64,000 nt of DNA from Schmidtea polychroa. Taxonomy: Eukaryota. The stretch's first letter is position 1. Each line of letters starts with the position of its first letter. The notes beneath the pieces are model-generated. The model made no database searches. It was not told the DNA's origin and saw only the letters and a program-made list of their open reading frames with translations. Location: NCBI GenBank assembly GCA_044892525.1, contig CM097888.1, forward strand, positions 34,534,001 to 34,598,000, written 5' to 3'. Both the position numbers and the translations under genes were made by a program. This document shows positions 24 through 61,447 of this stretch, piece after piece.

Positions 24-3000
24 CAGGGGCGCTCCAATCGGGCGTGCAACGCGTGCGTGGCACGCAGGCGGCCGTTTGAAAGGCGGCAAATTAAAAAAAT
101 GCATTTGCAAAAACAAGAATTTCATTTTGTAAAATTCATTTTTTCATTTTGTAAAATAAAAAAAAAGTTTCGACTATTTTGTTACTGAACGCACACAGTT
201 TGTGTAGTATCATTGAACGCACTCCATTAATTTTTATATATCTGTCTTGGCTTGTCATTGACAAATACTATTACACTAAATAACTTTGACAAGTTGTCAA
301 GGTCATTTAGTGTTTTAATTTTGGATTCAAAACAACATTAATATTTCCAGTTTTTAAATTTATAAAAATCAATAAGATTTTTATTTTAAAAAAAAATAGA
401 GATATATAATATTAGATTAGAAAGCAGGATTGTATTATAGAATTTGGTAAGTATAATGCAACTTTTTCTATATTTTTGTTAAACATAAGTGTTATGATGT
501 ACGTTAGATATTTATTATTTGTATTATTTGCACCATTAGATATGACCGGAAGAAAAACAAAACGTTTATCTGGCTCACAATACAAAAAGCAGCGTTTAAA
601 TAAACTGAAATCAATGCAGAGTTTGAAGAATTCGCTTTCAAAATATTTTGAAAATACACCAACAGCGTCGTCAAGCACACCTATAGAAATAGAAAATAAT
701 GTTACCATATCTGTTGACAATAATAAAAGTTCTAGCGATAGCGATGAGAATGAATATGAAATTTTTACAGAAATTCGGTCTGAAAATTCATCTGTTGGAA
801 ATTCATCTGACGAAATTTGTGAAGCAAATATAATATTGGACGATCCAGGTATGTGGGCAAATAATATATCAAGTATTACCGCACGTAACCTTGTTGAAAG
901 AGGACCGATTCAAATAAAAAATTTCGAATTTCCATTGTCAAGTGGGCGTAAATTTTCAAAAAAGTATTATTTAAGACAATTGTCGAACGGAGAAGAAACA
1001 CAACGCGAATGGCTTGTGTATTCAATTACTAAAAATTCTGTGTATTGTTTTTGCTGTAGGATATTTGATTTCAGTGATAAAAGCAGTCTATCCGATTCAT
1101 CTGGTTTTTCTGATTGGCAACATTTATCGTTAACTTTGTCTCGACATGAAAAAAGTCAGTTTCATAATGAAAATATAAAAAAATGGATATTGTTAAATAA
1201 ATCATTAAAAAATAATATTACAAGCCGAACGAAAGTATTGGTATGAAGTAATTCAACGAATAATATCTATTATTCAATATCTTTCTAGGCAATGCCTTGC
1301 CATAAGAGGAAAGTCAAATCAATTATATGCAAATAACAATGGAAACTTTTTGAAAGCAGTAGAAATGGTTGCCAGATTTGACCCTATTATGCAAGAGCAT
1401 GTACAACGGATTGAAAAGTCTCGAAACAATTTGAAATATATGCCTCATTATTTGGGGATAAAATACAAAACGAAATTATCAATATTATTAGCACAAGTAT
1501 TAAAAACGCTATATTAGATTTAATTAGAAAAGCAAAATATTTTTCAATTATATTAGATTGCACACCAGATGTTAGTCATACTGAGCAATTAACTATTGTA
1601 ATAAGAATTGTGAATTTGGAATCAAAAAAAATTGAAATACGTGAACATTTTTTGGGTTTCTATCAAATAACAAATACTACCGGCGAGGGGTTAACCGAAT
1701 TTGTTTCAAAAGAACTTTCAAATCTAAATTTAAATATTCATAATATGCATGGACAGGGATATGACAATGGTGCCAATATGCGAGGAAAGCATAATGGCTT
1801 ACAAAAAAGAATTTTAAATATCAACCCGCGAGCATTTTTTGTACCATGTTCTGCTCATAGCTTAAATTTAGTTGTTAATGATGCGGCACATATTTCACAT
1901 GAAACAGTAACATTTTTTGATTTAGTACAAGAAATATATGTAGTTTTTTCGGCGTCAACTAAAAGATGGGCGATAATAGTAAAATATTTACCGAATTTAA
2001 AATTTAAACCCCTGAGCGATACAAGGTGGTCAAGTAGAATTGATGCCATACAACCACTAAGGTATCATACTGAACAAATTTATAAATCTCTTCTTGAAAT
2101 ATCAAATGATCAATTGATTGACTTTAAAACCAGACATGTGGCAAATTCTCTTTCACTAAAAATATCAAGTTATCGTTATTTATGTTCCATTGTTATTTGG
2201 CATGAAATTTTGATGAAAATTAATGTTGTTAGTCAAATATTACAGAACCCAAACACCGATATCAATAGAAGCGTTACCGCGTTAGATGATTTAATAGAGT
2301 TTTTTAAAAATTGTCGTAATGATAATGGATTTGAAAAAATGCTTACATCAGCTAGTGAATTAGCCGAAAAATTACACGTAGAACCTAAATTTCCAGAAGT
2401 TTCAAGTTTAAGAATAAGAAGAAAAACAACAAATTTTGATTATGAAGGCAAGGATGAACCAATATTAGATCCAAAAACAAATTTTAAAATTAACTTTTAT
2501 TTCTGCATTATCGACCAAGCATTAGTATCAATTACAACAAGATTCGAAGCGTTAAAATCGTATAATGATATATTTGATTTATGTATAATATTAAAGATAT
2601 AACAGAAGAAATACTTTTGAAAAGCTGCAAAGATTTACATTTGAAATTAACTGACGAACAAAGAAATGAGTCCGATATTAATGGAATTGATTTATTCGAA
2701 GAGATAAGAACTATAAAGGTATTTTTAAAAGAAGAAGATATTAAACCTCAATCTATATTATTATATATTTTACAAAATGATCTTCAGGCAACATTCCCAA
2801 ATATATTTATTGTGACCAGAATTCTATTAACATTACCAATCTCAGTTGCAACAGGTGAAAGATCGTTTTCAAAATTGAAGATAATTAAAAATTATTTACG
2901 ATCAACTATGCTCCAGGAACGTTTAAGTAATATATCAATAATTTCAATAGAACAAGAAATCCTAGATAATTTAGATATGCATGACTTAATTTCACAATTT

Positions 3001-3302
3001 GCTTTGAACAAGGCAAGAAAAGTCTCTTTTGTATGAGTAGTAAACTATTAATTTCATAAACTTTCTATTGTTTGTGTGTACTAAACTATAACTTTCCTAA
3101 ACTTATCTGTTTTGTGATTAATAAACTATAATTTTCATAAACTATTGCATGTGATATGTGTGTTCTTCCGTAGTTAGTTTAATTTTTACTTTAATTAAAT
3201 GTTATTTTTATTGTGGATTATAGAAACTTTTTTGCAGCAAGGATGAAGAGCGGCGGGAAATTATTTTGCACTCAAGCGGCCTAACAGCTCGGCGCGCCCC
3301 TG
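24..3302 (+). mobile_element. hAT-superfamily DNA transposon (ZMYM1/TTF-zinc-finger type), full length, 3279 bp
   Basis: TIRs CAGGGGCGC[T/G]CC at 24-35 and 3291-3302; perfect 8-bp TSD AGTCAGAG at 16-23 and 3303-3310; internal transposase. Confidence 0.95.
542..3036 (+). pseudogene. hAT transposase, frameshifted (~3 shifts near 1225, 1455, 2590)
   Basis: REWLVYS..VYCFCC..WQHL..HE (TTF-type Zn finger); FSIILDCTPD (first catalytic Asp); GQGYDNGANM; PCSAHSLNL; SDTRWS; C-terminal dimerisation motif ATGERSFSKLKIIKNYLRSTMLQERL. Confidence 0.9.
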
Positions 3303-9559: not shown

Positions 9560-9749
9560 AATTTATTAAAAAGAGAGTTTGAAGACTATAAATCAGTAAT
9601 ATATCGATGTTTTTTGATACTCACGAATTTTCAGCACTGCCTTTTTCAAGTAAATTCACTTGAAAAAGGCAGTGCGGAAAATTCGTGAGTATCAAAAAAC
9701 ATCGATATATTACTGATTTATAGTCTTCAAGCTCTCTTTTTAATAAATT
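9560..9749. repeat. Near-perfect palindrome/foldback element: 92-bp arms, 6-nt loop (MITE-like)
   Basis: 9560-9651 is the reverse complement of 9658-9749 with 2 mismatches; loop AAATTC; TTAA near both outer ends. Confidence 0.95.
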
Positions 9750-13507: not shown

Positions 13508-15386
13508 AAGCTTGGTGTTTTTGTCCAAAAATCGAGTACTCGAGCCCGACCTTTAAAGCTCGACGAGCTTCGAGCCTAAAGTAACGGTTTTTTTGAATTT
13601 AAAGTCCAATGCATTTTCAAAAATTTACATAACAAAATGTTTTAGTATGTGTGTTTACATATTAATTTTTCCAATTTTCTGCTGACTACAAAAGACTAAA
13701 ATTTAAAAGAAACTTAGTGAATTATCAGGTAATTTTAATAAAAATCACAAATGTTAAGTAAATAACTTAATTTCTAATTATTTTTGCATCAATTTTAATA
13801 AAATTTCAAATATTTAACCACCATAATGTCTTCAACAAACGAGAAGGGATCTTGGGTCTGGAAGTATTACATTAAGCAAGTCGTCCACAAAAAAGCAGTC
13901 GGAACAAGATGCACAATTTGTAAAAATGCAAAAGAATGAGTTCCAAACACATCTAAGATGACTCGTCATTTTTCAACAATTCATAGCATTAATATCAAAT
14001 CATCACATCCAGAAAGTGGAATTAAGACTGCCAGTAAAGCTCAACCGTCTTTATGGCCATTTATGAAGCGAAAATCCTTGGAATGTCTCGTCGCTGAACT
14101 TGCAGCTGTTGATGGATTTTCAATCCGAGGAATAACGAACTCGAAGTTCATTCTCGAAGCTTTCATTGCGAAAGGTTATCACTTAACAAAATGTGAAACC
14201 CAGGTTATGGGTCTGGTCCACAAGTTCTACAATCAAGTAAAATCAGCTGCGATAGATCTGATCTCTTCTCATAAAGAAAATGGTTTTAAATTTTCTTTTA
14301 CTCTTGACGAATTGGTCGATGCCACGACTCGGAAATTTCTCAATATCACGCTGATTTGGCTAGGCAGAGGTGTTTTGAATTTGGGATTAGTGCGAATTAT
14401 TGGCAGTTGTACAGTAGAAATATTGTATGAATCTGTTGAAAACCATTTGTTGGCTTTTGGTATCAATCCCACGCACGATATTGTGGCTGCAACGGGTGAT
14501 GGAGCGTCTATTATGTTGAAATTTAGCACATTAAATCCTTCCATCTATCAAGTATGTTTAAATCATGCTTTTCATCTGGGATTCACTTTCTACAAGAAAA
14601 AGGAAAAATTGCGCAACACCAATGAAGCCATTGAAAATCAAACTGAAGTATTTGACGACAACTTTGATGACGATTTTGATTGGGATGATGGGCCGATGAA
14701 GAAATTTTTCTCAACGAAAATATTGATGCGATTCTTGCCTCTGTGCGTAGAATTGTAATTTTGTTTCGGTGTTCGTCACTCAAAACTGATCTGTTGCATA
14801 ATAAAATGCAAGAGATAAATGCTGCCTTTGGCCTTATTGATGTCGATGCAAGAGAAGAAGAATAAACTCAACAAAAGCTACTTAATGAAAAAGTGAAGCT
14901 ACAACTTGATGTCAAAACCAGGTGGAATACCTTCGTTCATATGATCACAATTTTCATCCGATACCTTGACCCTATTAAAGCAGCATTAGGCGATCTTGGT
15001 GATGAAGAAATCTGAACAAACATTTTAAGTACCAGGAATTTTTCTTTCAAATTTGCGGTGCAAATTATCCCATAAGTCATTGGGTGCTTTAGTGTCCCTT
15101 AAATATTATTTCAAAAATCTATTTTTGTAACCTTATCGACCATTTGGTGAAATTAAAAATGATTGAATAAAAAATAATCTCTAATTTGTAGTTTAAAAAA
15201 CTTAAATAATAATATTTTACAATTTATTGCAATTATAACGTGAAAATATAAAATTTAATGTTAAAAATTTTTGGTCAAAAAATTATAAAATTATCATACA
15301 AAGTCAGGCTTGAAAGCTTGACAAAAAGGACCAAGCTCGAGCCGAGCCGAGCCTAAGCCTCAAACACCAAGCTTTCCGAAACTCTA
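13508..15386 (+). mobile_element. hAT element with BED zinc finger, internally deleted, left end damaged
   Basis: Inner inverted repeat AAGCTTGGTGTTT at 13508-20 and 15362-74; right end TTCCGAAACTCTA; (C)GAGC(C) subterminal repeats at both ends. Confidence 0.75.
13826..15015 (+). pseudogene. BED-finger hAT transposase pseudogene
   Basis: ATG 13826 gives WVWKYY..CTICK..(TGA)..TSKMTRHFSTIH (BED finger); FSFTLDE; AATGDGASIM; CLNHAFHL; LQLDVKTRWNT; the dimerisation domain is missing. Confidence 0.85.
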
Positions 15387-16920
15387 TTAATCAGTTATTA
15401 AATTATTTAATGTTATTTGTTAATTATTTGGAAATATTATACAATTTTACCATTTAATTTTAATATTTTTTGTCTTTAAACAATCATAATGTCTTGCAAA
15501 GATACTCGTTTTAACACCATATTCTAAAATTTCATTGAAAAATGTTAACTTCCATAAATGTTTACATGGCCCATTAAAAGGTTATTCACCTCTGAAAGAT
15601 TAATTCACCTCTTCGTAATTTTATTTGTTAACGCGTTGAGGGATAAAGCGGCTATATCAGTTGAACTAACATGAATTTCTATATATTGTGTCTCATTACG
15701 AAAGCGCCCGGGAGCAAGATTTATATTTTGCTTCCCCCAATTTAACTGAAAACAAGAAAGTAGTCAATACTAAAAAATGCATATTATTATGAATCTTAAA
15801 AAGGCAATTTTAAGTTAAATAAATTTTAACTGCTTCAAACACAATACCAACCGCATTTTGCAAAATGACACCTTACAAAATTTGTTAATGGTTAAATCAA
15901 AGTCTATTTTATCAAGTGTTTCCTTCTTTACACTGAAAAGTGCAAGATAATAAAGGCGATTTCGACAGTCTTCAAAATTAATTGTTTAAGTTTACTCCTT
16001 TACTGAAAACGATGACATATACTTCCTTGGTCAACTCCACAGTTCTTTAAAGTTTTGCTTTACATAATCAAAAGTAGAACGACAAAATCTTGGGAAAGTG
16101 TTTCACATTATCGTATTCACCTCCTATATTTGATAACCGTGTATGTATCAGAATTTTTTCCAAACATCGCTAATCATTTTTTTGCTCTACAATTGTTCCT
16201 AAACCAAAAATAAAATGAATCCAAAGCAAACTTCATTATAGATAATTTCGATTAAAGTATAGTGTATCTAAATTTTACAGTACAACTGAATTTATTAATT
16301 ATTGAAAACGTATTCAAATTATTTTTCTGTTCTTCCGCGTCGCTCTCCCCTGGGGTATATTTATAAAAAAATATTTAGGGTTTATTGTTTTACCAAACAA
16401 TATTATAGATTTCATATGTATAATATATCAAGCACAATAGTACGAAAGACCTAACATTTATATAACTTTAATTATACCGACATCATAAATATCAAAGAAA
16501 GTTTTGAAGAAATAATATTTGAGAAATAGTAATAAATACTGAATTTTGAGTTTTCCTTTTCTTCTTCTAAAATTCCAAAAATACGCCACCTTCGACTGTT
16601 CAACTGTTCTTTTCTTTCATACGCATCGACAACATTAGCAAAAATTTTCTNNNNNNNNNNNNNNNNNNNNNNNNNNNNNNNNNNNNNNNNNNNNNNNNNN
16701 NNNNNNNNNNNNNNNNNNNNNNNNNNNNNNNNNNNNNNNNNNNNNNNNNNNNNNNNNNNNNNNNNNNNNNNNNNNNNNNNNNNNNNNNNNTTGTGTTTTG
16801 AGTGTTTTTAAATAATTTTTTTGTATATTGTATGTATTGATTGTTTATTAAATAAAATTTTTTTTTATATATAATTAATAAATTTGTTTAAAATCCTTAA
16901 TTTGTATAGTTATTATATCC

Positions 16921-16959
16921 CACCTGATGATGACAGGAAAACTGTCGAAATATATCGTG
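16921..16959 (+). ncRNA. Minimal type I hammerhead ribozyme (Penelope-like element type, dimer-acting)
   Basis: Stem I CAC/GTG; core CTGATGA (16924-30) plus extra T; stem II GACAG/CTGTC with GAAAA loop; GAAA (16947-50); palindromic ATATAT stem III; AUC cleavage triplet (16954-56). Confidence 0.7.
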
Positions 16960-17716
16960 AAAAGAATGTTTGATTAACGTTATCTTATAATTAAATCAAT
17001 GCCATGTNNNNNNNNNNNNNNNNNNNNNNNNNNNNNNNNNNNNNNNNNNNNNNNNNNNNNNNNNNNNNNNNNNNNNNNNNNNNNNNNNNNNNNNNNNNNN
17101 NNNNNNNNNNNNNNNNNNNNNNNNNNNNNNNNNNNNNNNNNNNNNNNNNNNNNNNNNNNNNNNNNNNNNNNNNNNNNNNNNNNNNNNNNNNNNNNNNNNN
17201 NNNNNNNNNNATTTTAATAATCAATAATTCTTTAAAAAAGATGTACAAATAAATTTCATTTAATTCCATTTTACAACAAAAATAAAGTTAATGATGCATA
17301 AAATTTGAAAAATACAAATTTTCAAATGAAATCGACAAGGAAATATATTCGTTGTTTTAACGAAAAACAACATGTTTTGTGCGTTACCTACAATCGACAT
17401 CGAATTTTTCTCAATTGTAATTTTTATAATTGCATGAAATTTATTTAAAAGATTAATAAATTTGAATCGTTAAAATTTGTTGATTATTTTAATACGTTTA
17501 ATGTCATCGATTAAATTTTCATCACCAGAAAATTTTTACAGACTCCGGTTCATGTTGAAATCGCCTCCAGCACAAATGGATATTGAAATAACTGCTCTGT
17601 TAAAGAAATGTTATTAGCCCTAGGTCATTATGTTAAGTAGTTCAATAAAATCTTCAGACCTGTTATTCAATTGCTAAATAGAACATTTCTTGTTTTAATT
17701 AAATAATAATAATTAA

Positions 17717-26171: not shown

Positions 26172-26879
26172 TTAATCAAAAAATATTTTTCCAGGTACAC
26201 TAAAAGGTCGAGAGCCATCGAAATTTCTTTGGTTCAAAATATGGGCAATCTTTATCATTTCCATAGTTGCAGGCATTTCATCGGTTTCCAATACATTGTT
26301 AAATTGTATAAATCCACAGACAATTATCATATTTTTTGTTGGAATTGGAATGATTTCCAAATTCCGAACGTTCCTGGTATGTTCAAGCATATTAATAGAA
26401 ATTTTGCTCTTAAAGTGTCTGTAAAAAATGGAAAGTTTTTTCATTTCCTCTTTTGAAACCACACAAGGACTTTTGAAATTTGAATAAAAAACGTATGAAC
26501 AATATTCGGAGTTTATAATGTGAAAATGCAGAATCACCGGAACACTGACGCAATAAAATCCTAATAGAAATGTGTATCCTTGTTTTTGGTTATTTGCGTA
26601 GCGTATGTGGCCGATTTTGAAAATATCGTAATAGTTTTTCATTGTAATCTGAAACTGAAGGTTTCCGGTGGTGATTAGGTTCGCTTGAATTTGTCTTTTC
26701 TTGCATGTATAGCATTTGAAATTGGTATTTAAATTTTTGGAGATCAAACAAAAATAATGAAACCGATGGCCGCAAGACAGTTGTAGAACTTCTGAGTTAT
26801 GCAATTCTCTGAAACAAATCGTGCATTCAGAAACGTCGTTGGAAATTTGTAGTAATTTGCTTTGTGATTTATTTATCAT
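26172..26879 (-). CDS. Intronless RING-H2 (C3H2C3) finger protein, ~235 aa, putative E3 ligase with unknown C-terminal domain
   Basis: CTIC-x13-CGHRFHYFC-x11-CYTC; open frame with ATG at 26879 in a very AT-rich context. Confidence 0.75.
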   Translation of the reverse strand: MINKSQSKLLQISNDVSECTICFRELHNSEVLQLSCGHRFHYFCLISKNLNTNFKCYTCKKRQIQANLITTGNLQFQITMKNYYDIFKIGHIRYANNQKQGYTFLLGFYCVSVPVILHFHIINSEYCSYVFYSNFKSPCVVSKEEMKKLSIFYRHFKSKISINMLEHTRNVRNLEIIPIPTKNMIIVCGFIQFNNVLETDEMPATMEMIKIAHILNQRNFDGSRPFSVPGKIFFD

Positions 26880-27003
26880 ATAATATATTATAATAAGATA
26901 ATTGTATTTATAATATAATGTTATGTAATTGTTCAATATATTGTGTAATAATTTATACAAGAAAAATTAAATAAAAATTAGAAATGATTTTTATTAATTT
27001 TAA

Positions 27004-29249: not shown

Positions 29250-30095
29250 GTCTATAGTTAAAATGAAAAACTTCATTTACAATATATTTAAGTGACAAAA
29301 TAATCAATTTTTCATTTATTTTGGGTCAGTAAAAATAGACAAACCTATATGAACAAGTTTAATATTAATTTTTTCTAACACATTCCTACTACAACATAAT
29401 TTTTTATTATACAGAAAATAAGTAAATTATTAGGATTTTTTGTCACATCATTAATCTATTTCATAGGTTCTATGAACTGCTCCCTTCATGATAATAAATT
29501 ATTATATTATCATTTTACGGAGACATTTATTTTCAATTTTATAAAAAACGATTGATATATACGTACGAATCACAATTATTATTTCTATATTTTTCTAAAA
29601 ATTATAAGTGAATAAATTATCTAAAAATGGTGTCTAAAATTCTAAAATTGAATTTGAATGCATGCATGCAATCATGCTTATTTGAATGTGAATTGAGGCA
29701 TGCATTTGCATTGTATGTGTGTAGCATGCATGTAAATGCAGAAAATAGTGAACTCAAATTATACCTCTTTTTTCAGCTACAATTTTTTGATTTGTTAAAA
29801 ATAAAACAATTTATTTTTCTGTAATTTCCAATATATTTCCAAAAATATTTTATATTAGAATCTTGACTAAATTAAATTTGTTACTGAAAAAATAAATTTC
29901 GAACTATAGAGGAAATTTCCATAAGTAATGCGTAATCATTTACAAAATGAGACTCAAATTGATGTTTTTTATGTACGATATCATTTCACATTTATTTCAA
30001 AAATTTTAAGGAAAAACTATTGTGAATATTATGACATAATATGGAATATAAAAACTCAAAACTAAACGATTATTTTCTATAAAAGTTTTTGGAGC

Positions 30096-30887
30096 ATGCT
30101 ATTTGAAGACAAATATTCTGTAGTGAAATTATTATCAGAAAGCGTCAAAAGTAGTGTATGCGTTGCGGAAAATCATGCCACTACTGAAACGGTTATTGTT
30201 AAAGCATTTAATAAACATCACAAATCTTCTTTCGTTAAAACTCAATTAACTGGAGCAGTTATTCCAAAGGAAATGTTTATTATTCAATTTATTAAAGATT
30301 CAAGCATTCGACCGGATATCATTGAATGCTTTGATGAAAGCGATGAATTTGTTATTGTTATGAAACATCTGTGTGGAAAATGGATTGATCTTTTCGACTA
30401 TACACTTGAAAGAAAAAGGGAGTACATTTTAAAAAGAATTTTCAAAAATATTCTACATGTATTAATGAAATTGAGTTCTAAAGGTGTGTATTACATGGAC
30501 ATAAAACCGGAAAATATCATGGTTAACACTGAAACTTTAAAAGTCAAACTAATAGACTTTGAGGATGCTGTGTTTTCTCCAGATGAAAAGTCTCCTAAAT
30601 CCAATAAAATAATCGGCACAATTGGATATTGCTCACCGGAAATGGTGCAAAAACAAACTTACGATATTCGTGCAAATCAAGTTTACAGTTTTGGAAGCTC
30701 TTTGTTTTTTTGTATTGAAGAGAAAACTCTTTTCAAAGATTTCGAAAGTACTCTTCAGAAAAACTTTTCGGAGTTTAAATTTTGTTCAAAATCTGCCGAA
30801 GATTTAATTCGAAAATGCATATTAGAAGATCCGACATTGAGAATTGCAATTGAAGATATAGAAAATCATGAATGGTTTTGTGTGTGA
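30096..30887 (+). CDS. Intronless PIM-like (CAMK-group) Ser/Thr kinase, atypical, 263 aa
   Basis: VIVK, PKEMF, WIDLFDY, YYMDIKPEN, KLIDFED, GTIGYCSPE, LIRKCILEDPTLRI..IENHEW; the Gly-rich loop is absent. Confidence 0.88.
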   Translation: MLFEDKYSVVKLLSESVKSSVCVAENHATTETVIVKAFNKHHKSSFVKTQLTGAVIPKEMFIIQFIKDSSIRPDIIECFDESDEFVIVMKHLCGKWIDLFDYTLERKREYILKRIFKNILHVLMKLSSKGVYYMDIKPENIMVNTETLKVKLIDFEDAVFSPDEKSPKSNKIIGTIGYCSPEMVQKQTYDIRANQVYSFGSSLFFCIEEKTLFKDFESTLQKNFSEFKFCSKSAEDLIRKCILEDPTLRIAIEDIENHEWFCV

Positions 30888-42641: not shown

Positions 42642-45600
42642 CTATAAGATATTAATTAGATATCTTAAAGTCATTATACACCTATAATTTGTGCAAATTG
42701 TTTTTTTATCCCCTTATTCATTGCAAAATTTAAAGTTCTTTGAAGGTAATTTTCAGCATTATTTTCGGTAACTGGTTCGTGAATAGAATCATTTTCATAT
42801 CCCATATTGCAAATATCATCATGAGAATCACTATCTTCTTCCCACCAATAATGATCATATAATGGAAATGGATAAGTTCCATATATCTAATAATTAATAA
42901 TTCTAATAATAAATGTAACAATACTAATAATATTAAACAAGTAAATAATAATAAGTCTTTTGCTGCAAAGTATATATTGAATAAAATGAATTAATTTTNN
43001 NNNNNNNNNNNNNNNNNNNNNNNNNNNNNNNNNNNNNNNNNNNNNNNNNNNNNNNNNNNNNNNNNNNNNNNNNNNNNNNNNNNNNNNNNNNNNNNNNNNN
43101 NNNNNNNNNNNNNNNNNNNNNNNNNNNNNNNNNNNNNNNNNNNNNNNNNNCTTTTGAGGTGGGAAGAAATTCCATGTCTAAGCATAATCCATCAAAAGTC
43201 GTTCCAAAAATTTCAATTGCGAGAGTTTTTAATTGATCATGAACGTTCCATAAAGTTCGATTTCCAGCTTCATTAATAGTTTTTAAAAGTTTTTGCTTTT
43301 CTTCACAAAAGAATTCTATGGACATGAGAAATAATCCTCTTTCGGGATAAATTAGCATAAATCTTTTTAAATATTCCTTTTTATTATAATCAGAAAAATC
43401 TTTGCAAAGAATTTCTAGAAATAGCTCAGAAAATGGAAGATCCATGATTCGATTGTCCTATTTGTAGAAAACATTATTTCATATGTTCTCAAATTAAACA
43501 TAAATCATAAAAAAATCAAATATTAATTGCCATGATACATGTTTAAATTTTTAAGTTGAATTGCAATAACATAAAATACATCTTTTTATGACAATACTTA
43601 AGTAAAATCTTTCATTTTTAACCATTTTACAATTCTTGTCTTTTGGAGTAATTGTCTATTATTTTACGGATACTGATTCCTCAACGGAAGATAGCATTTA
43701 ATAAGAAATTGCAAGGTCCTATTATCGACTTATTGATAACTAAACAAACTGAAATATGAAATCAGAATTCCACAAATGATTCCTAAGAAATTTTAAGTGA
43801 TTCCAGTCAATTGTAGATATAAAAAAAACATTTATGAAATGTTACTTTTGAAGACAGTAATGACAATAAATATAATGATTTAATTTTATTTCCCTAAAAC
43901 ATTTAAGCATTATATTCAATCAAGTATAAGCTCAATTTTATATTTTTATAATTGATCAAATTTTTACGAGTATAAGTCTAAGTTTATGAACAAAAGTTTT
44001 TGAAAATAGTTTTTATTGAAAAAGATTATTATTGAACATGTAACTCATTTTTAATTAGTATAAGTTTACTTTAATTATCAAAGCAGAAACTCATCGTAAA
44101 TAGCACTGCTAACATCTTCATAGTATTAATAATTAATAATTAGGTAAAATTCAATGAGAAAAATATGTTAGTTTCCTGGTTAAAGCAGTGCAGTTTTTAG
44201 TTTCAAGTAACTTCTTAACTTCCTCACAAGCTTTATGCTTAAATAGTGCAAATAATTATTATATCAGGAATGTAAATTATCTAACAAAAAATTATCATAG
44301 GGGTCGCTTAATAATTATTAGAAAACGGTAATTTCGAAATTGTGTTGCCAAGTTTACAATTGTAGGCATGTAAAATTATAATAATACATGATTTTACAAT
44401 TTGAGGACAGAATTAAGAATATATTAAAATTATTTTCAGCAAATGAAAAAAACAGCACAAACACTAAATTCTATATTTAGGCAACACATCTTGCAATATA
44501 GATTATTGCTAGAAACCAGTAAGCACTTCAAAAATCATTTTTAGATATGTAGTTAATAAGAGTAACCAGTTCTCCTGAATAGGTTAAAAAGATCTTACCA
44601 TTTGGAATTGAAACCCGACAGATTAGTATCCATTTTTTTAGTATATTAGATGTCTTTAACGAACAAATTGTGAATAGCAAATATATTTTAAACTTTATCA
44701 AAATGATGATAAAAATAAATAAAAGCTACTTGTAAACATTTAGCCATAAATATTCCAAGTAATCTAAATTTTTCAAGAAGTTCTTCTGTTAATTTGTCTA
44801 TAGGCCAAGGGTAAGGAAACAATCCACTTTTAGAAAAAACAAATTCATTCTCTTCTTCCAAAAATGAATCAGTATGCACCCACATTAAAAGGCTCGGTCT
44901 CATAAATTCTTTGCTTAGAATATTAATAAATTCTAATGTCGGTCCAAGACCTGTTCCTTCTTCTTGGTCGAATTGTATTTCTAGTTCTTCTTTGGATTTT
45001 GCGTGGAATACAAGCAAGTCTTTCACTGCAGACCAAAATATTGATCTTGATTCGGCTTCAGTTAAAATCGTGTTTCCGAAATAATATGGTCGAGGAATTT
45101 GAGCTATATGTTTTTTAAGTCTTCCTAGAAAATGAAATGGGGCCACAAGGTCTTCCCTAAATGACGGCCGAATATAATCACTATTTGGTTTAGCTCGTTG
45201 TTGAAGCCAGATTATAGATCTAATGAAAATGAAATTTTATTTTTTTGCAAACTGTTTTTAAAGTTTTATTTAAATATTAATAAAAATCATTATTGCTGTT
45301 CAGAAATTAAATTTTATATAAATTATACGCTACTTAAATGAGGTGGAAACTAAATTATAGTTTGAAAAAATACTACTCTATAATTGAACTAGATGAAATA
45401 CCCAGCGTTGCACGGAAATTCAAAAAAATAAAATCACCAATTATATACATAGTGATTGTAGAGATAAATTGATTAAGTTACTTCATAATAATGGATATTC
45501 TAAGTCTTTTTTACAACGAATGGTGTGTGAAACTGTTGATAAGTTGAATGAGATTGATGACATAATTTTACCTGATATTGATCCGTTTAATTCCACTGAA

Positions 45601-48600
45601 AATGTCCTTTTGATTTATACCGAAATAAATGTAATAGATATGATTGATGTTGCTTGATTGAATAGAATTGATAGCAATAATGCTAAATCTGATAAAATAA
45701 GTGAACATGATTTGTCTGCTAATGCTGGTTCTATTTTAGTTTTACTGTTATCTGAGGGTTTTAAAAATTTTTAGAAAGTTAAATTAAAAAATATTGAAAA
45801 TGTCAGTGTTAAAATTATTTCAAAAACTTGTAGAGTTCATGATATGTTCAACAATGAATCTGTGACACTTTTTGGTCTATGTTAAGGTCTTATACATCGT
45901 TTTACTTGTAACGGGTGTAGTACCACATAAATCATCTCTGTACACAAGTTCGAGAGCATATCCAATTGAGTGGAAATAGTAATATCATTGAGCATAATAA
46001 GATATGCAAGTTAAAAATAGACATTTCCAAATTATTGGGAACGTATTACTTTACCCTTACTATATTTCACATTCACTGATATAGTAATCTTTCTACCAGC
46101 GATGTTAATGAGTTCTTCTGGCTCCCACTTACTCAATATAAAGTCGTCAATTACAATACCATCATATTCATGGTGATTGGGACCGGGTTTATCAAAATCC
46201 TGTCTATATGCATGAATAAAAATGCCAATTAATAATAAAATATAAATAATTGCAATATGAAGAGGGTCTTTAAAATAGGAAAGGATAAATTTTATTGTAC
46301 CAATAACCATGTCCCTATATCTAGGCAAAATTAATGGAACTTTTCTTTTAATTCATTGAAAACGAAAAAGTGCAAGTTCAATAAAATCTTAACTGGTACT
46401 TGGTAAATATATAAAAAACCCTGTCCTGATCTCCAAAGCAATTTTTTAAGAGAATTTCATCCGTGTTCTGTCTTATTGAGACTCGAGTGAATAGAAAATA
46501 GTTTTTATTATCGGTAAATAGTAAGTTCTCTATTTAATTCTTTGTCAGGTTATAAATTAATATTTTTCAAACAAACCTCGAAACTCCAAACCAAAAGGCT
46601 CTCAATATATCAATTTTAACATCATAGAAGAAAACGAATGGATATTTTTGAGGCCATTCAACAATCCATGAAGGTAGTGTATCTCGAGAAATCAAACTCC
46701 AAACATCTTCAAGTTGAGATAAAACCTTCTTACACATATGTTGCGAAATGAAATATAAATCTAGCCAATACACATCTAAAGTTTTCAATTTCATTACTTC
46801 ATTTTTCGTTTTTTCTATGAATCTTAATTGCAAACATTTTAAATGATGTAAAATTGAAAATATTTTATCAATCTCGTTAGCTGGCTTTTTGTTTTTATCA
46901 TTAGACCCGTTGGATGTTTTGATCTAAATTTTAATTACCAAAGTTTCATAACAAGCTTTAACATACTTTTTGATAAAAACAATTTTGACACGATGTTCCG
47001 GATCCCTTTTTGTCACAAAATCCGTAAAATAATGTAAATTGACTATGCCAAATTTCTGATACATTGTCAATAGGATAGATGTTTAAAATAGGATCCGGAG
47101 ATGGTAACATTTTCTGTTTATTAAAATTTTATTAGACTAAATCAATTATGAGAAAAAATCATTTAATCTTTTCACTTTTGATCTGATTACATTCATAATT
47201 TCCTTTATAATTTTCACTATTCGACTATATTCGACTGCGCCCATCAAAAGTTTAAGGAAGTAATACAGAAAATTTGGTTATAATATAAAACATTTATTTA
47301 TAGTCGAAAAAAATGAAGATAGAGGAAATCGTAATTCATTTATGTGACAATTTTTTATGTGACAAAGCAATTTTTAATAATTTAGTTAATAATTTCAAGT
47401 TATTTAAAATGTGTTAGATGATTAGAAATAATGATAAAGGACAAAAATTATTGAAGATGTGAAGAATTTTGCTCTGAAATAAAATAAATTTATGCATTAT
47501 AATGGGTTTAAAATTTATATAAAAGTTTTGATGAAAACAAATTGATTTTATTAGTAACACTAATAACGTTTTTAAAATTAAGTATTCATTAAAATAATAA
47601 AAATTGATATATCATTTCACAATTTAATCTACTATAAGCAAAGAAATTGCATGACATTTTTCGTGGTTTGATAATAAAATCATTGGTGGCGTGAATAAAA
47701 CCTGGTGTATTTGCCCCATGGTTTTGACTGAATGCCACTAATAAGTATTTGTATATGCAATGGGAAGTGTACACATTTGTCTGCTTATAAGAGATTGAAT
47801 TTGGAAATGGTATATGACAGATGAGCAAAAAATTCATCTTTGTCACTTAGTTTTTGACGTGTGGCAGGTAGTTTAAGAATGTCACACAGAAACATTATCA
47901 TTTCTACTGTGCGATCTCAGGCACATTTTTAATTGTTTATCAAAACAGTCCAATTGGTTAAAATATTACTCTGAATTGATAGTATATTTTTGTCGTGTGA
48001 GCTCATAATGAGTTCATAAGAACTTTCCATGTTCCATTAAATCCAAAATATTTTTCCTAGTGTTTAATGTACATTTATTGATATGTTAATATTTACCGAT
48101 TGTATATATGATGAAAAATAAGCTCGTGCTTAATAAAGAAAGACTAAAATATTTTAAGAGAGTAAATTATAATGTACATGTGTAAGTTTTATTTTAGTTT
48201 TCATTATATCATTGATTTTTTGCACTCTGTAATTAAAGTATTGGAAAGTGTGTAATATCGTAATGTCCTTTGAATGATCGTTTTGAAAGAAAAAATAGAG
48301 ATTCAATTTGAATAACAATGTTTATGATGAAAAATGTTTATCTGTGCCTACTATAAATGAATTTAAAAGCGACAGAACATCCAGAGCCGGATTTACTCTT
48401 GAGGGGGCCCAAGGCTAAAAATCTTACGAGGCCCTTTTCTAATATTTTTAACAAAAATATTAATTTGTTTCCGGCTGTTATATAGTTAAAATAATAGATT
48501 AATTTCGAAAATAATATTACATTTATTCATATATAAAAGATATAAACATGAAGTACAATTCATAAATAAAAAACATTAATTTAGAAACATTCTTCTAGAT

Positions 48601-51600: not shown

Positions 51601-54600
51601 TTTAGATTATCCATTATGTCAAAAAAACTTAAAAGAAGACTTAATGGGGAAAACAGAGCTTTTAATGAAGAATGGCAGCTGCAATATTAACTTATTTCTG
51701 TGAAAGATAAAATGGTTTGTTTGTAAAGTAATTATATACTGACAACTTTAAAAAAGTATAATGCGAACCAGCATTATATATCTCACAAAGATCACAAATA
51801 TGTTAAACTCGAAGGCCAAGCTCGTAAATCTGCACTTCAGAAAATGAAAAAAGAAAGACAGGATCAAACACTATCTTTCAGTGCTTTTACTAAGCAAGGA
51901 TCCGCTTCAACTGATGCTACATTCAAAATAGCGTATATACTTGGAGAAAGAGGTAAGCCATTTAGTTATGTGGAAATGATAAAGGAATGCATTGTTGAAG
52001 CAGTTGGATGCTTAGATCCTGAAAAAATTGAAAAATATAAACAACTACCTCTTTCACGAAGGACCATTACTGATAGATAACACGAATTAGCTTACAATGT
52101 AACAGAACAGCTTCGCAAAATTATTCAAAAAAAGGATGTATATTTTTCAATAGCATTAGACGAATCTACTGATAAAACTGACTCAGCTCAGGTATTATGT
52201 TTTATTCGTGCCATAACTGAAGATTTTCAATCTTATGAGGAACTACTCTGTTTGGGCGCGCCCACTGGAAGAACTCATGGAATAGATATCCACGATAAAT
52301 TTAAAAAAATATGTCGTGAAGCAGGACTAAAACTTGATAATCTGATTAGTGTGTGCACTGACGGTGCACCTTCCATGAAACGCAAAAAAGAGTAATTTGT
52401 TTCATTGTTAAAAAAACAATTTAAATTTACAAACATTAATTTCATTTCATTGTATATTGCACCAACAAAATCTTTGTGCTAAATCTACTACATTAAGCAA
52501 TACTATAGAGAAAATTATTGTACTTGTTAATTTTATCCGAGCAAATGCAACACGACATCGCCAATTTCGAAACTTGCTTATATCAGATGCTGAGACATAT
52601 AGTGTAGATTTACCGTATCATTGTAAAGTGCGCTGGCTATCAAGAGGCCAGGTTTTAGTCAAAGTTTTATCATTGCGAGAACAAATCGTGAAATGTTATG
52701 AGGAACAAAACCAGCATTGCGATTTACTAGATGACGAATTTTGCAGAAATAGTGCATTTTTGTGTGATATTATGGTAAAGCAGAACGATTTAAATATTTC
52801 TTTGCAAGGTAAAACAAAACATATTTATGATATGTGGCAAAAAATCCAGGCATTTCGAAAAAAATTATTATTTTTCAAAACTATTTTATATCGATCGGAA
52901 ATTTCTGGAGAACATTTTCCGCAATTAGCAAAAATATTAAATGAACAAGAACCTAGAAGTTTCATATCTCAAGATTACATAACTGTTTTGGACTCACTAA
53001 CTGAAGAATATACGGAACGATTTTCTGATTTTGAAGAACATACTTTGATAATGAAATTAGCATTTGAACCACATCTAGTTGATATCTCAAAAGCACCTAG
53101 CGAACTACAGATGGAATTGTTTGAGTTATGTGAAGATAATATTATAAAGTCTCCTTTTGACGCAAAGAAATATCCGATTGAAATATGGAAGAATGCAATT
53201 GAATACCCATGTTTACGCGAACATGCTCGTAGACTTCTTTCTTGCTTTGGAAATACTTACTGCTGCGAATCAACTTTTTCATATTTAACACAAATTAAGA
53301 CCAACTTAAGGACTGAGATAACTGATATTCACTTAGAAGATCAACTTAAGTTACGTGTTACTAAGCTGGAACCTGATATCAAATTTCTTTCCAATAAAAA
53401 GCAGGCACAAAAGTCCTATTAAATTGGTTATGTGGACCTGCATATTTTTTACATCTTTTTATTTTTTTTAATGGACTATGCATGTGTTTTATATCGAACT
53501 AATAAAAAAAAATTGGATTTGAGGAATTATCATTTTTTGTCTTAATTTTTATTTTTTGTGCTTCCAGAAAAATAGTAATATATTAAAGTTATATGCGGCC
53601 TGCTTACGATCTACAAAATTATAATTGGCCTTTAATGGTAAAAAAAGGTTCCCTATCCCTGATCTAATGCATCATCGAATACATCATCATAGAAATACAT
53701 CATCTGAATACATGAAAAGACATGAATGTCGGTCGAAAAAAAAATGTTTTAAGTAGGGATGGTTGAAATAAAATTTATTTAGGAGTTTCCCAGAGGTAAA
53801 TAAATTCTTTTTGTCTTGGAAGTATATGTAAATATTTATATATTAATAGATTTATAATTTTTATAATTTATAATAGATTCATAAATTTGAATTACTAATT
53901 TTATTGCTTCTGTACATACATTTATTTTACTTTCTCCATCCTAATCATGAGTGTTCCAAAGAAAAGTAAACTCTACCATTATCACGATGAATGGCAACAT
54001 GATTATTTTTTTTTATGTCTAATAGTAAATGTTGTTGTTAAATATGGTCCTCATCTGTAGCAATTCTAAAGAAAAGAAATGCGGAGACATTTTTAAACAA
54101 TGCATGCAAAATATGATGCAGAATATCCAAAGATACTGAAATATACAAGGTAAAAATACAAGATTTGAAAAAAACATATTTCTTTGCAGCAGAATATGTT
54201 TGTGAAAGCTACGAAGAAACCAGTTTTCAATAACCATAGCGACTTGGAGTGTGTCATTTATTAGTCAAAAAGTAAAATGCATTTCATAAATGGCAATTTT
54301 ATTGAAGAATCGGGTTTGACAGCGATAGAAGCTCTTACAGCTTCAAATATATAACAGACATTATTGATTTAATTAAGGATTTACAGTCTTTGAGAATGAT
54401 TGTAACAAGAAGAATAGAAGATTTAAGTGCAGATATTACTAATCAGTTACAACAAGAATAATTAAATGTGTTGCATTTTCATTGGCATTTGACGAGTCAA
54501 CAGACGTAATTGAAATTGCAAAAATAATAGTATTTAAAGACTGTAGAACTAAAGAACTTAAAATAATACACTGCATGGAAGGACAAGAGGGCAGAATATA

Positions 54601-57600
54601 TTTAATGCTTTTGATAATTTTGTTAAAGAAACTGCACTTCCTATTTCGAAATTATTTGATGGGGTCCCTTCATTGGCCAGTCACAAGAACTTCTATATAT
54701 GTATATGTTCAGTGGCTTAGTAGAAGGAAATTTTTAATGAGGTTTGTGGATGTATTGAATGAAATTAGAAACTTCCTAGCTGAAAAAAAAGAATTTCACT
54801 CAAAATTAACAAACAAAGTGTGGTTGTTTAATTTGTTTTTTGGTAGCTTTCTCTGCAAAACTTAGTGACTTGAGCTAAAAGGTAAAAATAGAAATTTAGC
54901 AGATATTATAAGTTCGACAAGACAAATAATCCCGATTTTGAAAAAATTTCTAAGTCAAACCTATGACAAAGATCACATTAATATGTACTTGCTTTCTTAT
55001 ATATTTTTGATATTAATAATTTATTTATTATTTTTTATTTTTTTGAATTTTTTGCTATTTCTATTTTATTTTTGTATTTATTTTTTTAATTTTAAAATGA
55101 AGTGAAATAAAGTGAAGTTATACTAATTAAAGATCTAAATTCTTTGTAAATGGATAGATTTCAAGGTAGTTGAATTAAAATAAGTCGATCTTTAGTATAA
55201 AAAAGTTGGGCAGGCCTGATCTATTCAGTAAATTTCAAGAATATTTATATATTATTAACAATTGGATGTGAACATATTTTTGTTATCAATTTGTTAGTTA
55301 AAATTTCTGTTGCATAGAAGTAATTTTTGATCTTTAATTAGAATGAAAATAAATGACACATCAAAAAAGGAAACAGATCAAAGGTGACTAAACAAATAAA
55401 AGATTTTACTTGTATATTCGTTCTTTGGAATTATTTATACAAACTATTGTTGTAATCTACTCAAATAGACTTGATGTATGTGTATTTGTTGGAATTTGGT
55501 GTAAAATATTATGAGTTGTTACGCCTTATAACACTTTATTTTAATGATTGTATTTTTTAATAATATTCTTTATCATTGAATGTTTTTGCAATAGAAATTG
55601 TTAGTTACTGAAAATATTTTTAATAAAATTATAAATCAATTAATGCTTTATTTATAAAATTGTTAATCATTAAATACTTTAATAAATTTCTTTTTCATTG
55701 ATTATATTTGTAATTAAATTGATATTTTAAAAATACCGTAACTCAAATTAGTGAATTTGAAGGGTCACTACTGACAACCTGCCCCTCCTTTACTGGAGAA
55801 AAGATTAAGCTAAATATTATTTTTGACTAGTATTTATATGTGAGTCAACTAGTAAAAAAAAATCTAGATTAATATTTTTCCCTCGATGGAGAGGAGTTGA
55901 GTTAGTGGTGACCCTTTCTACTATTCAAGGCAACTTAAGTTACTTAGGTGTGAAGAAAAATGAATTTATTTCCGTAGCAATGATTGAAAAATGGGTTTCA
56001 AAAAACTATGTGGTACGTATTACTGGTGGGACTTCGTTGATAAAATCATTTAATCCAAAAATTAACATATAAAATGCATTAATAAATTTTATTGGATTCC
56101 CTACATATAATTATAAATTACTAATAAACCTGTAAGTATAATAGTTTTTATTGAAGGTATTTCATGCCTCATGATAACAGTTGAGTTGTCGAAATATATT
56201 GAAAAAACGTTTTAAAATTGGTGTTCTATTTATTTTAATAAGTCACTAATCCTTTTTATAAAATATAACTGACCCGTGTACAAAGAAACGATAGTAATTA
56301 TACATGTTAATATTTTTATCTGAAAATTAAAATATGTATAATTAATATATAGGGAATTATAGAAATTATATTAGATTACTTCATATTCTTCACTTTGATC
56401 ACTCATTTCAATATCTTCCGTTAAAGTGTTGAATTTGATAATATCTTTTTTTAAAATTTCATTTTTACTATCAGTCAACATGTTTACAATGTGGTGGGAT
56501 TTCCGTTTAGTTTGCTTATTCATACTGAAACTCTAAATAATTTAATCAAAATAAGAATAATTGAGTTTTTATTGAAATTCTCTATATGAACATATAAATA
56601 ATACAAAAACTATATAAATAATCATATTGTCTAAATAAGAAGTGTTACAAAGAAGTCTAGATATTTTTAAATGTATAGAAACTGATTTAGCAAAATACTT
56701 GAATGAAACACACCTATTTGTCGGATATATTTCAGAAATTTAATGAACTAAATTTTACTTACAATTCACTTTAAAATTAGAAGATTTATTAACCTCTTAA
56801 GTGGCTATGACGGATATATACGTCATCAACTAAATTGACCTAAATTAACAAAATATGTTAAAATTATATCATAAATATTACTTTTGTCAATATATTATGT
56901 TAACCCTTTCCTATCTTGTGTCTATAAAAATATGACAAAAAAAAATTAACAATTCTATTCTTTGTCTGTAAAAAAATGATATTACCAATGGTGAGAATGA
57001 CCTTGAAAATGATATACAAGATGCACAGTTGAGCACTGGCGATGATGACGATAATTCTTTTTAATTTTTTAAATTTTTTAAAATTTAATTAGGATTGGAA
57101 CGGGCGGGAAGAACATAAAATAAAGAAGATAGGAAAGGGTTAATAAATATCATCCAATAAGATATTATTTTATTTTTTGTAACACTATGCCCAAGATGTA
57201 TATATACACTAGCGGATGACAAAATTCGTTGCTGAGGAGCGCATTTCGTTTAACGAAATAAACCACTTAAGAGGTTATAAAGCATGCTTTGTGGAGAATG
57301 AATCAGCAATAAAAGTATTCAAATCTTGTATGAATTAATTAAATTAAAATCAATATATGAGGGAAAGTATCTTTAATAAAACAAATTTGAGACGGAAAGA
57401 AAATAAATAACAATCAAATTCAAATTTTTTTGTAAGTTATAATTGAAATTATTAAATTTAAAACTAAAATTTTTTAAGCATTCAGAAATTGATTAAAAAG
57501 ATTGACCAAAGTCAAAGAACGTGGAGAAAATTACTACAATCACATAAAAGAAATTTCCCAAAATCATTACTAAAACAAAACATTTTAGAATACCTTAAAA

Positions 57601-59600: not shown

Positions 59601-59970
59601 TTGTAAAAATAAAAATATATCACTATCTTAGAAAAATAAAGTGTTCAGAAAAAAAGAAGAAAGAACGTTTTGTATACGGAGATATTTGGTTGATTTACTG
59701 TAAACATTATTTATAGAATATTTTATCAATCAAATCAAGAAAGGAAATAATTAAATTATATTACAATAATTATTAATTTCAAATATATTTCCAAGAAAAA
59801 TTCCGGAAATTCTTGTTTGTCTTGGGGACCATTTGACACCCTTCTTTGAGTGGCACTCGTTGCATGATAGACCCCATTGCTCCTCCTCGCTACGTCACTG
59901 ATTATAATATGTTTCATTAGATGAAAGTATTTTATTTTAGATATATGTAATTTTAAATATATGTTGGCGT

Positions 59971-60399
59971 ATGTGGGGAAAGAGAAAATTATGCACACGT
60001 GATTATCGTACGTACCAAGTACCCTTTCCCGCTCAGACACTTCCCATACATACTCCAAATGATCAAATACATATTCCCTCGTATGAGCCCGTGGTGATGT
60101 TCCACGTTGGTGCTGCTCACACGGGTCGGAAAAGGTTAGCAGGTGAGCCCTGCATTAGGACTACTCCTAACCCTTTCGCGGTTCGGGTTCTATGGTGCCT
60201 TAGAAGGACTTACCCGTTTCTTCACACGAAATCCAGTCCGACCCTGGTCCAAAGGGCGACATTTAAGCTCGTACTATGTCTTCAGGAGCACCTTTTACTC
60301 AAATCAACCACAGCAAATCATACATACTATGGACAAGATCAAAGAATTCGAACAATTGTATTAAAGCGAAAACACAAAGATACATTCACCATTAAATAA
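59971..60399 (+). other. 142-codon open frame convergent with the orphan ORF, ending at AATAAA
   Basis: Open frame in the GC-richer block; stop overlaps an AATAAA; no recognisable domain. Confidence 0.3.
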
Positions 60400-60494
60400 A
60401 TAATAACAAAACATCAAAGGTCATGTACAAGATAACGTCAACTTCTTCGAGTTCCTTCATACTGCACGAAAAATTGAGGCCAATGAAAAATTCG

Positions 60495-61447
60495 TTACGA
60501 AAACACTTCCCCTTCTGCGATCATTTCGTCAATGTCGACGGGCAACCGGCGATCTTCTAGGAATTTGATGCTGTCGGCCGGAACTACCCGAAATACTTCT
60601 TTCGTAGGGATAGAATGGGTGATTGTAATTTCCTTGATAGTCGATTTGGCTGCAGATAACGATGCTTCGAGCGCGGCCATGGCGTTTCTGCGCTTCTGAT
60701 TTTTCTCTGAGTGCGTCGGTCTCTTACGCTTTCGATGTGGACATGCGGCTTCTGCTGGAGGCTGAATGAGTGGCGACACGAGAACTGGGGCCAAGATAGG
60801 GTCCGATGGACCACCAGCCATAGGCCGATAACCAGAAAGGACTGGGGCGGGAATTGGTGGCAATTGTAGGCCGTGCCCCTTGCAACTGGTGGTTGATGAG
60901 GCTCCAGCTGACTGATGGTGTACTGGGAACACGTTAGTCCCATCTTGTATCGGGTATTCGCGAACCCGCTTCGCTATCTCGGATTCCGAATATACTTTGT
61001 GTAGTGCCTCTGATTGGGCTTTTATGGTTAGCCTCTGGCATCTACTCTCCTCCAGGAGACTGTCACGGCAGTGCTCCAAACGTAGAATTTTACTCTTCTC
61101 TTCCTTCATTTGTGGTGGGGAGAACCACGTTCCTTCGTATAGGTCAATTCTCTTCTTTAATTCCCCGATATATAAGTGGAGCTGTGCGATATCTGCATTT
61201 TTGTCGGCACAGGAAAAACAAGGTCGAAGAGTACTTCCGGGCTTAGTTGGAGTGGTCATCTAAAAGGTAAGACAGTTATACTCGCACCACAGGCATTATG
61301 ATATTGCCAGTGACACTCTTACGACATGAAGTTTATTCCATCAATCTCGTATTAAAGTCAAAAAACATAAAAGCCAATCTCACGCATACGTACCAGTGAT
61401 CGTGATGCGGTCCATTCGACCCCAAATATTCGAACTAGTTCATTCAT
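60495..61447 (-). CDS. Orphan protein (254-aa exon 61259-60495; possible upstream exon 61447-61394, giving ~272 aa): CxxC, coiled coil, Pro-rich linker, basic NLS-like tract
   Basis: Intact ORF; TTACCTTTTAG acceptor directly precedes the ATG; GTACGT donor at 61393 in phase 0; CFSC, LHLYIGELKKRIDL, RKRKRP..KRR. Confidence 0.6.

What the first reader, a model, noticed from the sequence alone, without database searches (positions are those of the whole stretch)
16921..16959. Minimal dimer-type hammerhead ribozyme
Seen: full core (CUGAUGA, GAAA, AUC), 5-bp stem II, 3-bp stem I, an extra U after A9, and a stem III too short to close but self-complementary (AUAUAU). Established: Penelope-like retroelements carry minimal type I hammerheads with palindromic stem III that cleave as dimers. 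Inference: this marks a PLE/retrozyme terminus next to two assembly gaps, ~1.2 kb upstream of AP-2, with predicted cleavage after C16956.
Basis: partly seen in the sequence, partly recalled or inferred. Interest (0 to 1): 0.7.

Follow-up and report, generated by a model that had tools for sequence, protein, structure and literature searches.

The report
Penelope retrotransposon stub with minimal hammerhead
This is the short leftover end of a very abundant jumping gene, which carries a tiny RNA motif predicted to cut itself only in pairs; the type is already published, and this lone copy is likely inactive and likely unrelated to the neighbouring AP-2 gene.

Summary
The motif is real and described correctly. 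It lies in a ~250-bp, 5'-truncated end of a Penelope-like retroelement (PLE): the last codons of the ORF, a 3' UTR, the hammerhead and a 66-nt tail, inserted in an (AAT)n microsatellite. The flanking Ns are not assembly gaps.

The exact 39-mer occurs 493 times in the genome. A sister form with the palindrome AUUAAU in place of AUAUAU occurs 795 times. Sister copies show hammerhead, RT+GIY-YIG ORF, hammerhead, with a 2,771-bp period. Related families in the genome covary in stems I and II.

The anatomy matches published PLE minimal hammerheads and the anole Poseidon element: ORF start inside the ribozyme, two end positions about 31 nt apart, ATT-type targets. It is not a retrozyme. The AP-2 start codon is ~1.7 kb away, not 1.2 kb, and no link was found. 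Cleavage was not tested.

The one unpublished-looking point is the palindrome swap. It keeps self-pairing but is predicted to block pairing with the older forms. It is a single event and may be neutral. This scan noted other PLE hammerheads elsewhere in this genome before.

The parts
16771..17025 (+). 5'-truncated insertion of a Penelope-like retroelement (3' pLTR end), about 250 bp, with an internal deletion in the AT-rich 3' UTR
   Evidence: Limits of similarity to other copies; maps to unit positions 2496-2611 and 2663-2848 of full-length copy L032
16771..16815 (+). Last codons of the PLE ORF (end of the GIY-YIG domain), stop codon at 16813-16815
   Evidence: the same 24-mer ends the long ORFs in most of L031-L050; protein P0001
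16816..16920 (+). AT-rich 3' UTR, shorter than in full-length copies
16921..16959 (+). Minimal type I hammerhead motif: 3-bp stem I, core, extra U, 5-bp stem II, palindromic AUAUAU in place of stem III; predicted cut after 16956
   Evidence: covariation across families
16957..17022 (+). 66-nt extension past the predicted cut (long-tail end), homologous to the start of the next unit's ORF; here it carries a premature stop
16668..16769 (.). (AAT)n microsatellite, left flank (likely the insertion target)
   Evidence: Genome copy L001
17026..17190 (.). (AAT)n microsatellite, right flank, same orientation as the left
   Evidence: Genome copy L001
18682..19073 (+). First covered exon of the neighbouring AP-2 gene (ATG 18703); not part of the element
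   Evidence: Spliced contig with GT..AG joints; PF03299 in a later exon

Best explanation
The motif is the minimal hammerhead in the end repeat (pLTR) of a Penelope-like retrotransposon, left here in a 250-bp truncated copy inside an (AAT)n microsatellite, and this lone copy is likely a passive relic. SHOWN: in full-length sister copies one hammerhead lies on each side of an RT+GIY-YIG ORF, 2,771 bp apart, and the ORF's first ATGs lie inside the upstream hammerhead core. Copies end about 35 or 66 nt past the predicted cut. INFERRED: in a tandem transcript the two motifs would pair through their 6-nt palindromes, likely helped by the element's protein, and cut after C17 to release a unit-length RNA. 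The endonuclease would nick ATT/AAT-rich DNA. The RT would start inside the RNA at one of two sites past the hammerhead and copy backwards through it, so the template was uncut or re-ligated at that site. Here it stopped after about 250 nt. This copy has no partner hammerhead in the window and no ORF.
For: Copy number: exact 39-mer 493 copies, sister form 795, reversed-pattern controls 0; 1,597 with the two central palindrome bases free. Tandem layout: hammerhead-ORF-hammerhead in 4 of 20 loci chosen for long open frames (L031-L033 at 2,771 bp, L040 at 2,701 bp with one stop). Protein: RVT_1 E 1.8e-9, GIY-YIG E 0.02; GIY..YIG with the two internal cysteines and downstream histidines, DKG present, no CX2-5CxxC. 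Truncation: 39 of 39 analysed sampled copies are 5'-truncated; 20 long-tail, 19 short; 6 end in (AAT/ATT)n. Tails: in 18 of 20 inverted pairs not selected for tail, one arm is long and one short, 0 long/long (p 0.0004 against 0.5). Covariation: 6 of 11 pairs change on both sides in 18 hand-picked rows; score 0.304 against 0.178 shuffled and <=0.094 slid. Palindrome: 98 of the first 100 listed family copies and 28 of 30 loci from the loop-variant search, mostly other families. Neutral decay: the triplet holding catalytic G12 is changed in 12 of the first 100 listed copies. Literature: PMC4209133, PMC11167929 and PMC8557442 describe the same anatomy.
Against: No cleavage data. Unconstrained co-folding of two monomers does not give the active dimer, and the palindrome duplex is only about -2 kcal/mol. 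Stem I has pair probability about 0.39 in context, and its third pair is unpaired in 9 of 18 rows. The Pfam GIY-YIG hit is below its cut-off (15.6 against 22.6 bits). Rfam gives no hammerhead match. The covariation rows were hand-picked, related, and found with patterns that fix the core. In PMC11167929 hammerhead mutants did not affect insertion in vitro and no RNA-seq ends were found at the cut, so the motif's role in vivo is open.
Confidence: 0.85

Rival explanations
1. The hammerhead fold is kept in the element for a non-catalytic reason (a binding or folding signal for the RT protein, or translation control of the overlapping ORF start), and cleavage is rare or irrelevant in vivo.
For: Every copy with an intact end runs past the cut site. 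The ORF start overlaps the core. PMC11167929: cleavage is not needed for insertion in vitro, and no reads end at the cut. No mutational scar at the cut (21 of 100 against 12 of 100 in a control triplet, p 0.13).
Against: All catalytic-core features and the palindrome are kept across families whose RT/EN pieces are only about 45-75% identical to P0001, though the search pattern fixed the core. PMC11167929 shows real protein-assisted cleavage that depends on C3 and G8.
Confidence: 0.25
2. This particular copy has been co-opted as a regulator of AP-2, for example by cutting upstream read-through RNA or acting as a promoter.
For: Same strand as AP-2, 1.7 kb upstream of the ATG. The 39-mer is intact. 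pLTRs can hold promoters (passage in PMC6765202).
Against: An intact 39-mer is common (493 exact copies). The copy has a UTR deletion and a stop in its tail. No partner hammerhead lies in the 64-kb window. With over 3,000 such motifs in 781 Mb, some will fall near genes.
Confidence: 0.04
3. It is a non-autonomous retrozyme monomer.
For: Type I hammerhead in a short repeat; a different 4-bp-stem hammerhead with an ACTAGT palindrome does occur in this genome.
Against: The copy carries the ORF's last codons, has the variable 5' end of a truncated PLE, and its unit is a 2.8-kb coding element. Retrozymes are non-coding tandem units (preprint 10.64898/2026.07.22.740005, part 1).
Confidence: 0.01

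Closest known systems
[quoted passage not shown]
   Same: [quoted passage not shown]
   Different: Stem II is 5 bp and stem I 3 bp, against 7-8 and 4-5 bp in Schistosoma. With 2-bp helix III plus a 2-nt palindromic loop it is nearer the Drosophila/rotifer variants. It has the ordinary C3-G8 core.
Poseidon element PAc of Anolis carolinensis (Frangieh et al. 2024, PMC11167929)
   Same: ORF begins within the hammerhead, partial tandems, two 3'-end positions bounding an optional 30-40-nt tail, ATT-type targets, C-terminal GIY-YIG.
   Different: Ends lie about 35 and 66 nt past the cut, in AU-rich sequence rather than an AC-rich stem-loop about 111-118 nt into the ORF. No sequence comparison with PAc was made.
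Penelope/Poseidon clade of EN+ PLEs (features from Craig et al. 2021, PMC8557442)
   Same: C-terminal GIY-YIG with CCHH, DKG motif, no CX2-5CxxC linker, inverted 5'-truncated copies, tail at one end only.
   Different: Clade placement was not tested with a tree against reference PLEs.
Dimer-cleaving small PLE hammerheads (Lunse, Weinberg, Breaker; PMC5785218)
   Same: Same class by its title and by the summary in review PMC6765202.
   Different: The paper is not held, so it is unknown whether this family or the palindrome variants are in it.

Membership tests
Type I hammerhead ribozyme | Core CUGANGA / GAA / A15.1-U16.1 / H17 joined to stems I and II | tested here: met
Type I hammerhead ribozyme | Self-cleavage after H17 | not testable with these tools
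   Needs an in vitro assay
Type I hammerhead ribozyme | Match to an Rfam hammerhead model | tested here: not met
   No hammerhead family at E<=1 in the window or at E<=10 in 16800-17007; a 39-nt form without loop 1 context may be beyond those models (inference)
PLE minimal hammerhead (PMC4209133) | Extra nucleotide between 9 and 10.1, and G10.1-C11.1 pair | tested here: met
   T16931; G16932-C16946
PLE minimal hammerhead (PMC4209133) | Palindromic 15.2-16.2 / loop 3 | tested here: met
   ATATAT 16950-16955; 98 of 100 listed copies palindromic; 28 of 30
PLE minimal hammerhead (PMC4209133) | Families with compensatory changes within one genome | tested here: met
   6 of 11 pairs in 18 hand-picked rows
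PLE minimal hammerhead (PMC4209133) | Located in the pLTRs flanking the ORF | tested here: met
   4 of 20 loci show hammerhead-ORF-hammerhead
PLE minimal hammerhead (PMC4209133) | Cleaves as dimer, not as monomer | not testable with these tools
   Energy estimates only: a monomer stem III costs about 5 kcal/mol, the dimer duplex gives about -2
EN+ Penelope-like element | Single ORF with RT then GIY-YIG bearing CCHH | tested here: met
   In sister copies: (GIY-YIG below Pfam cut-off); the window copy keeps only the last codons
EN+ Penelope-like element | 5' truncation, partial tandems, inverted copy, 30-40-bp tail at one end | tested here: met
Penelope/Poseidon clade | No CX2-5CxxC linker; DKG motif | tested here: met
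   features from PMC8557442
Penelope/Poseidon clade | RT groups with Penelope/Poseidon in a tree | not tested
   No reference PLE proteins were fetched
Non-LTR retrozyme | Non-coding short unit in tandem, each with a hammerhead | tested here: not met
   The unit is 2,771 bp and coding; the window copy is solitary

The most novel reading that the evidence does not exclude
The hammerhead palindrome is a partner code. The youngest subfamily changed AUAUAU to AUUAAU, which keeps self-pairing but breaks pairing with the AUAUAU used by its older subfamily and by the other sampled PLE families of this genome. That would insulate active elements from cross-dimerising with RNA of thousands of dead copies, as the dimer-initiation palindromes of retroviruses do (analogy recalled). 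This genome would give a natural pair of sequences for testing whether PLE hammerheads dimerise in trans in vivo.
Probability: 0.12. Interest if true: 0.6.

Novelty: new member of a known kind. Interest (0 to 1): 0.22.

Why it matters
As a locus it is ordinary: one of at least 1,597 copies. The family offers young, open-frame tandem copies and two natural palindrome variants. These could test two open questions, whether PLE hammerheads cut in vivo and whether dimers form in cis or in trans. It gives no sign of relevance to AP-2 regulation.

Tried and rejected
Rfam: no hammerhead hit.

Cut-site scar (lead from earlier finding e1-8146457): in the ATATAT subfamily the triplet at the cut differs from the common form in 21 of the first 100 listed copies, against 12 of 100 for a control CpG triplet (totals 870 and 794; Fisher p 0.13). 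The changes are mostly transitions, not random bases. In 33 ATTAAT copies, mostly chosen for long open frames, there was 1 change at -1 and none at +1 or +2. Not supported here.

Expression: no RNA holder listed. Only contigs were available, which cannot show ends or strand. No end pile-ups were reported. No listed contig bridges this copy to AP-2 or to unique flank, and table 8 was cut. This is no evidence either way.

Co-folding did not produce the active dimer. The tree of 41 ORF ends clusters the palindrome types (3-4 changes against about 13 shuffled), but only 2 of 38 branches are well supported and it has no outgroup, so a single origin is not shown.

The window's second PLE relic (45463-46034) has no hammerhead by my descriptor. 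Lunse et al. could not be read. L118 was lost from the 40-copy sample through my strand slip. The sequence look-up of earlier findings returned nothing.

Full report
1. Observation. The sequence at 16921-16959 is as described: 3-bp stem I, CTGATGA, an extra T, 5-bp stem II, GAA, the palindrome ATATAT and C16956. It is the only descriptor hit in the window. 0 of 150 Markov simulations gave a strict hit and 28 of 150 a loose one. On its own the 39-mer folds only modestly (z -2.0). Rfam finds no hammerhead. The flanking Ns are not assembly gaps: the genome copy L001 reads through them and shows (AAT)n runs at 16668-16769 and 17026-17190. AP-2 is real, but its spliced contig starts at 18682 with an ATG at 18703, about 1.7 kb away.

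2. What it belongs to. The 217 bp between the masks is a dispersed repeat (1,554 candidates, 40 scored). The exact 39-mer occurs 493 times and a form with ATTAAT 795 times, with reversed controls at 0. With the two central bases free there are 1,597 matches; of the first 100 listed, 43 are ATATAT, 55 ATTAAT and 2 ATAAAT (counted by eye). Upstream of other copies lie GIY-YIG and RT fragments. I fetched 20 of 150 RT hits, chosen for long open frames. Four show hammerhead-ORF-hammerhead: L031-L033 with a 2,771-bp period and an 873-codon open frame, and L040 with 2,701 bp and one stop. The protein has RVT_1 (E 1.8e-9) and a weak GIY-YIG match (E 0.02, below cut-off). It has the GIY..YIG motif with two internal cysteines and downstream histidines, has DKG, and lacks CX2-5CxxC. 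Atlas neighbours are eukaryotic RT/HTH/GIY-YIG clusters at 0.98. These are the features of a Penelope/Poseidon-type PLE given in PMC8557442; no tree against references was made. The window copy spans about 16771-17025: last ORF codons with the stop at 16813-16815, a UTR with an internal deletion, the hammerhead, and a tail with a premature stop. The genome (781 Mb, a few large contigs, AT-rich) suggests a planarian; this is my recall and no call named it.

3. Family anatomy. Of 40 copies picked at even steps from the two exact-match lists, 39 were analysed and 1 was lost by my slip. All 39 are 5'-truncated; 20 have the long end and 19 the short; 6 end in an AAT/ATT run, 2 with such a run on both sides. 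Ends cluster at about +35 and +66 from the predicted cut (77 copies). In inverted pairs from loci not selected for the tail (L031-L050, L111-L150; outermost hammerheads used for L031, L032, L040), 18 of 20 have one long and one short arm, 2 have two short arms and none has two long. The ORF's first ATGs lie within the upstream hammerhead core. All of this matches the anole element PAc (PMC11167929: ORF start in the hammerhead, two RT start sites bounding the tail, ATT cleavage) and the layout in PMC8557442.

4. Is the structure under selection? A pattern excluding this family's loop finds 1,765 further motifs, control 0; some are mutant copies of this family. Of 30 fetched, 28 have a palindrome and 20 lie near RT/EN sequence similar to P0001. 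In 18 hand-picked rows, 6 of 11 pairs change on both sides (for example C-G to U-A and A-U to U-G in stem II, A-U to G-C in stem I). The covariation score is 0.304 against 0.178 shuffled and at most 0.094 slid. The rows are related and the core was fixed by the search, so this is support, not a probability. The third stem I pair fails in 9 of 18 rows. Individual copies decay: the triplet holding G12 is altered in 12 of 100 listed copies. Selection therefore likely acts on source elements, not on stubs such as this one.

5. Mechanism. Shown: the anatomy above. From the literature: monomers of PLE min-hammerheads are inactive and dimers weakly active (PMC4209133); PAc cleavage needs the element's protein and is not needed for insertion in vitro (PMC11167929). 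Computed: closing stem III in a monomer costs about 5 kcal/mol; the homo-duplex gives -2.2 (AUAUAU) or -1.6 (AUUAAU) and the hetero-duplex +1.4; free co-folding does not give the active dimer; stem II is certain and stem I has probability about 0.39. Inferred: two motifs in a tandem transcript pair through the palindrome, probably with protein help, and cut out a 2,771-nt unit. Because copies run past the cut, the RT template was uncut or re-ligated there. This copy arose by priming at the +66 site in an (AAT)n target and early termination. It has no partner in the window and is most likely inert.

6. The palindrome swap. Nineteen of the 20 long-frame loci carry ATTAAT and one carries ATCAAT, although the query RT came from an ATATAT locus; I chose them by frame length. 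The other families use ATATAT, so ATTAAT is likely derived. Palindrome type tracks the ORF lineage, and most ATTAAT copies have shorter end branches (weakly supported). Within-group identity of the last 300 ORF bases reaches 99.3% for 12 ATTAAT copies and 96.3% for 6 ATATAT copies, with close means of 93.3 and 92.5%. The swap is a both-sided change that keeps self-pairing. It is one event and could be a neutral two-base inversion. One search for this idea listed no relevant paper, but Lunse et al. could not be read and may cover it.

7. Papers seen. PMC4209133: parts 1-2 of 4 (results, discussion, bioinformatic methods). PMC11167929: parts 1-2 of 4 (main text). PMC8557442: found passages and section 6. 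PMC6765202: found passages. 10.64898/2026.07.22.740005: part 1 of 5. PMC5785218: title in a reference list only. Searches for planarian PLE hammerheads listed no dedicated paper; Repbase-type libraries and all supplements were not seen and may already list this family.

8. Verdict. A real, correctly read PLE minimal hammerhead in a truncated copy: a new member of a known kind, with low interest as a locus. Earlier notes of this scan reached the same class for other hammerheads in this genome.

Noticed in passing
window 9592-9717: Near-perfect inverted repeat of about 126 bp; sub-threshold Rfam MIR7504 hit (73 against 83 bits), likely a foldback/MITE-like element.
   Followed up: no
window 45463-46034 and 56004-56065: Relics of other PLE copies: 36-47% protein identity to P0001 at the first, a 62-bp DNA match at the second; no hammerhead by my descriptor.
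   Followed up: partly
window 416-3033, 13940-14755, 52412-53419: Open frames that look like hAT-type DNA transposase pieces (by eye; 13943-14755 had no Pfam hit).
   Followed up: partly
window 26175-26966 (-): Open frame with a RING-finger-like cysteine/histidine pattern (by eye).
   Followed up: no
window 30066-30884 (+): 273-codon open frame that looks like a small protein kinase (by eye).
   Followed up: no
window 59941-62731: GC-richer stretch (37-42%) with several open frames, possibly another mobile element.
   Followed up: no
L066:1501-1530 (-): A different, more canonical hammerhead: 4-bp stem II, no extra nucleotide, ACTAGT palindrome, 6-bp stem I, no PLE protein hit nearby; retrozyme-like.
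   Followed up: no
L031, L032, L033: Three partial-tandem PLE copies with an uninterrupted 873-codon frame and identical hammerheads, suggesting recent activity.
   Followed up: partly
L081-L110: At least three further PLE hammerhead families share the ATATAT palindrome but differ in stem II, loop 2 and residue 17 (A or U).
   Followed up: partly
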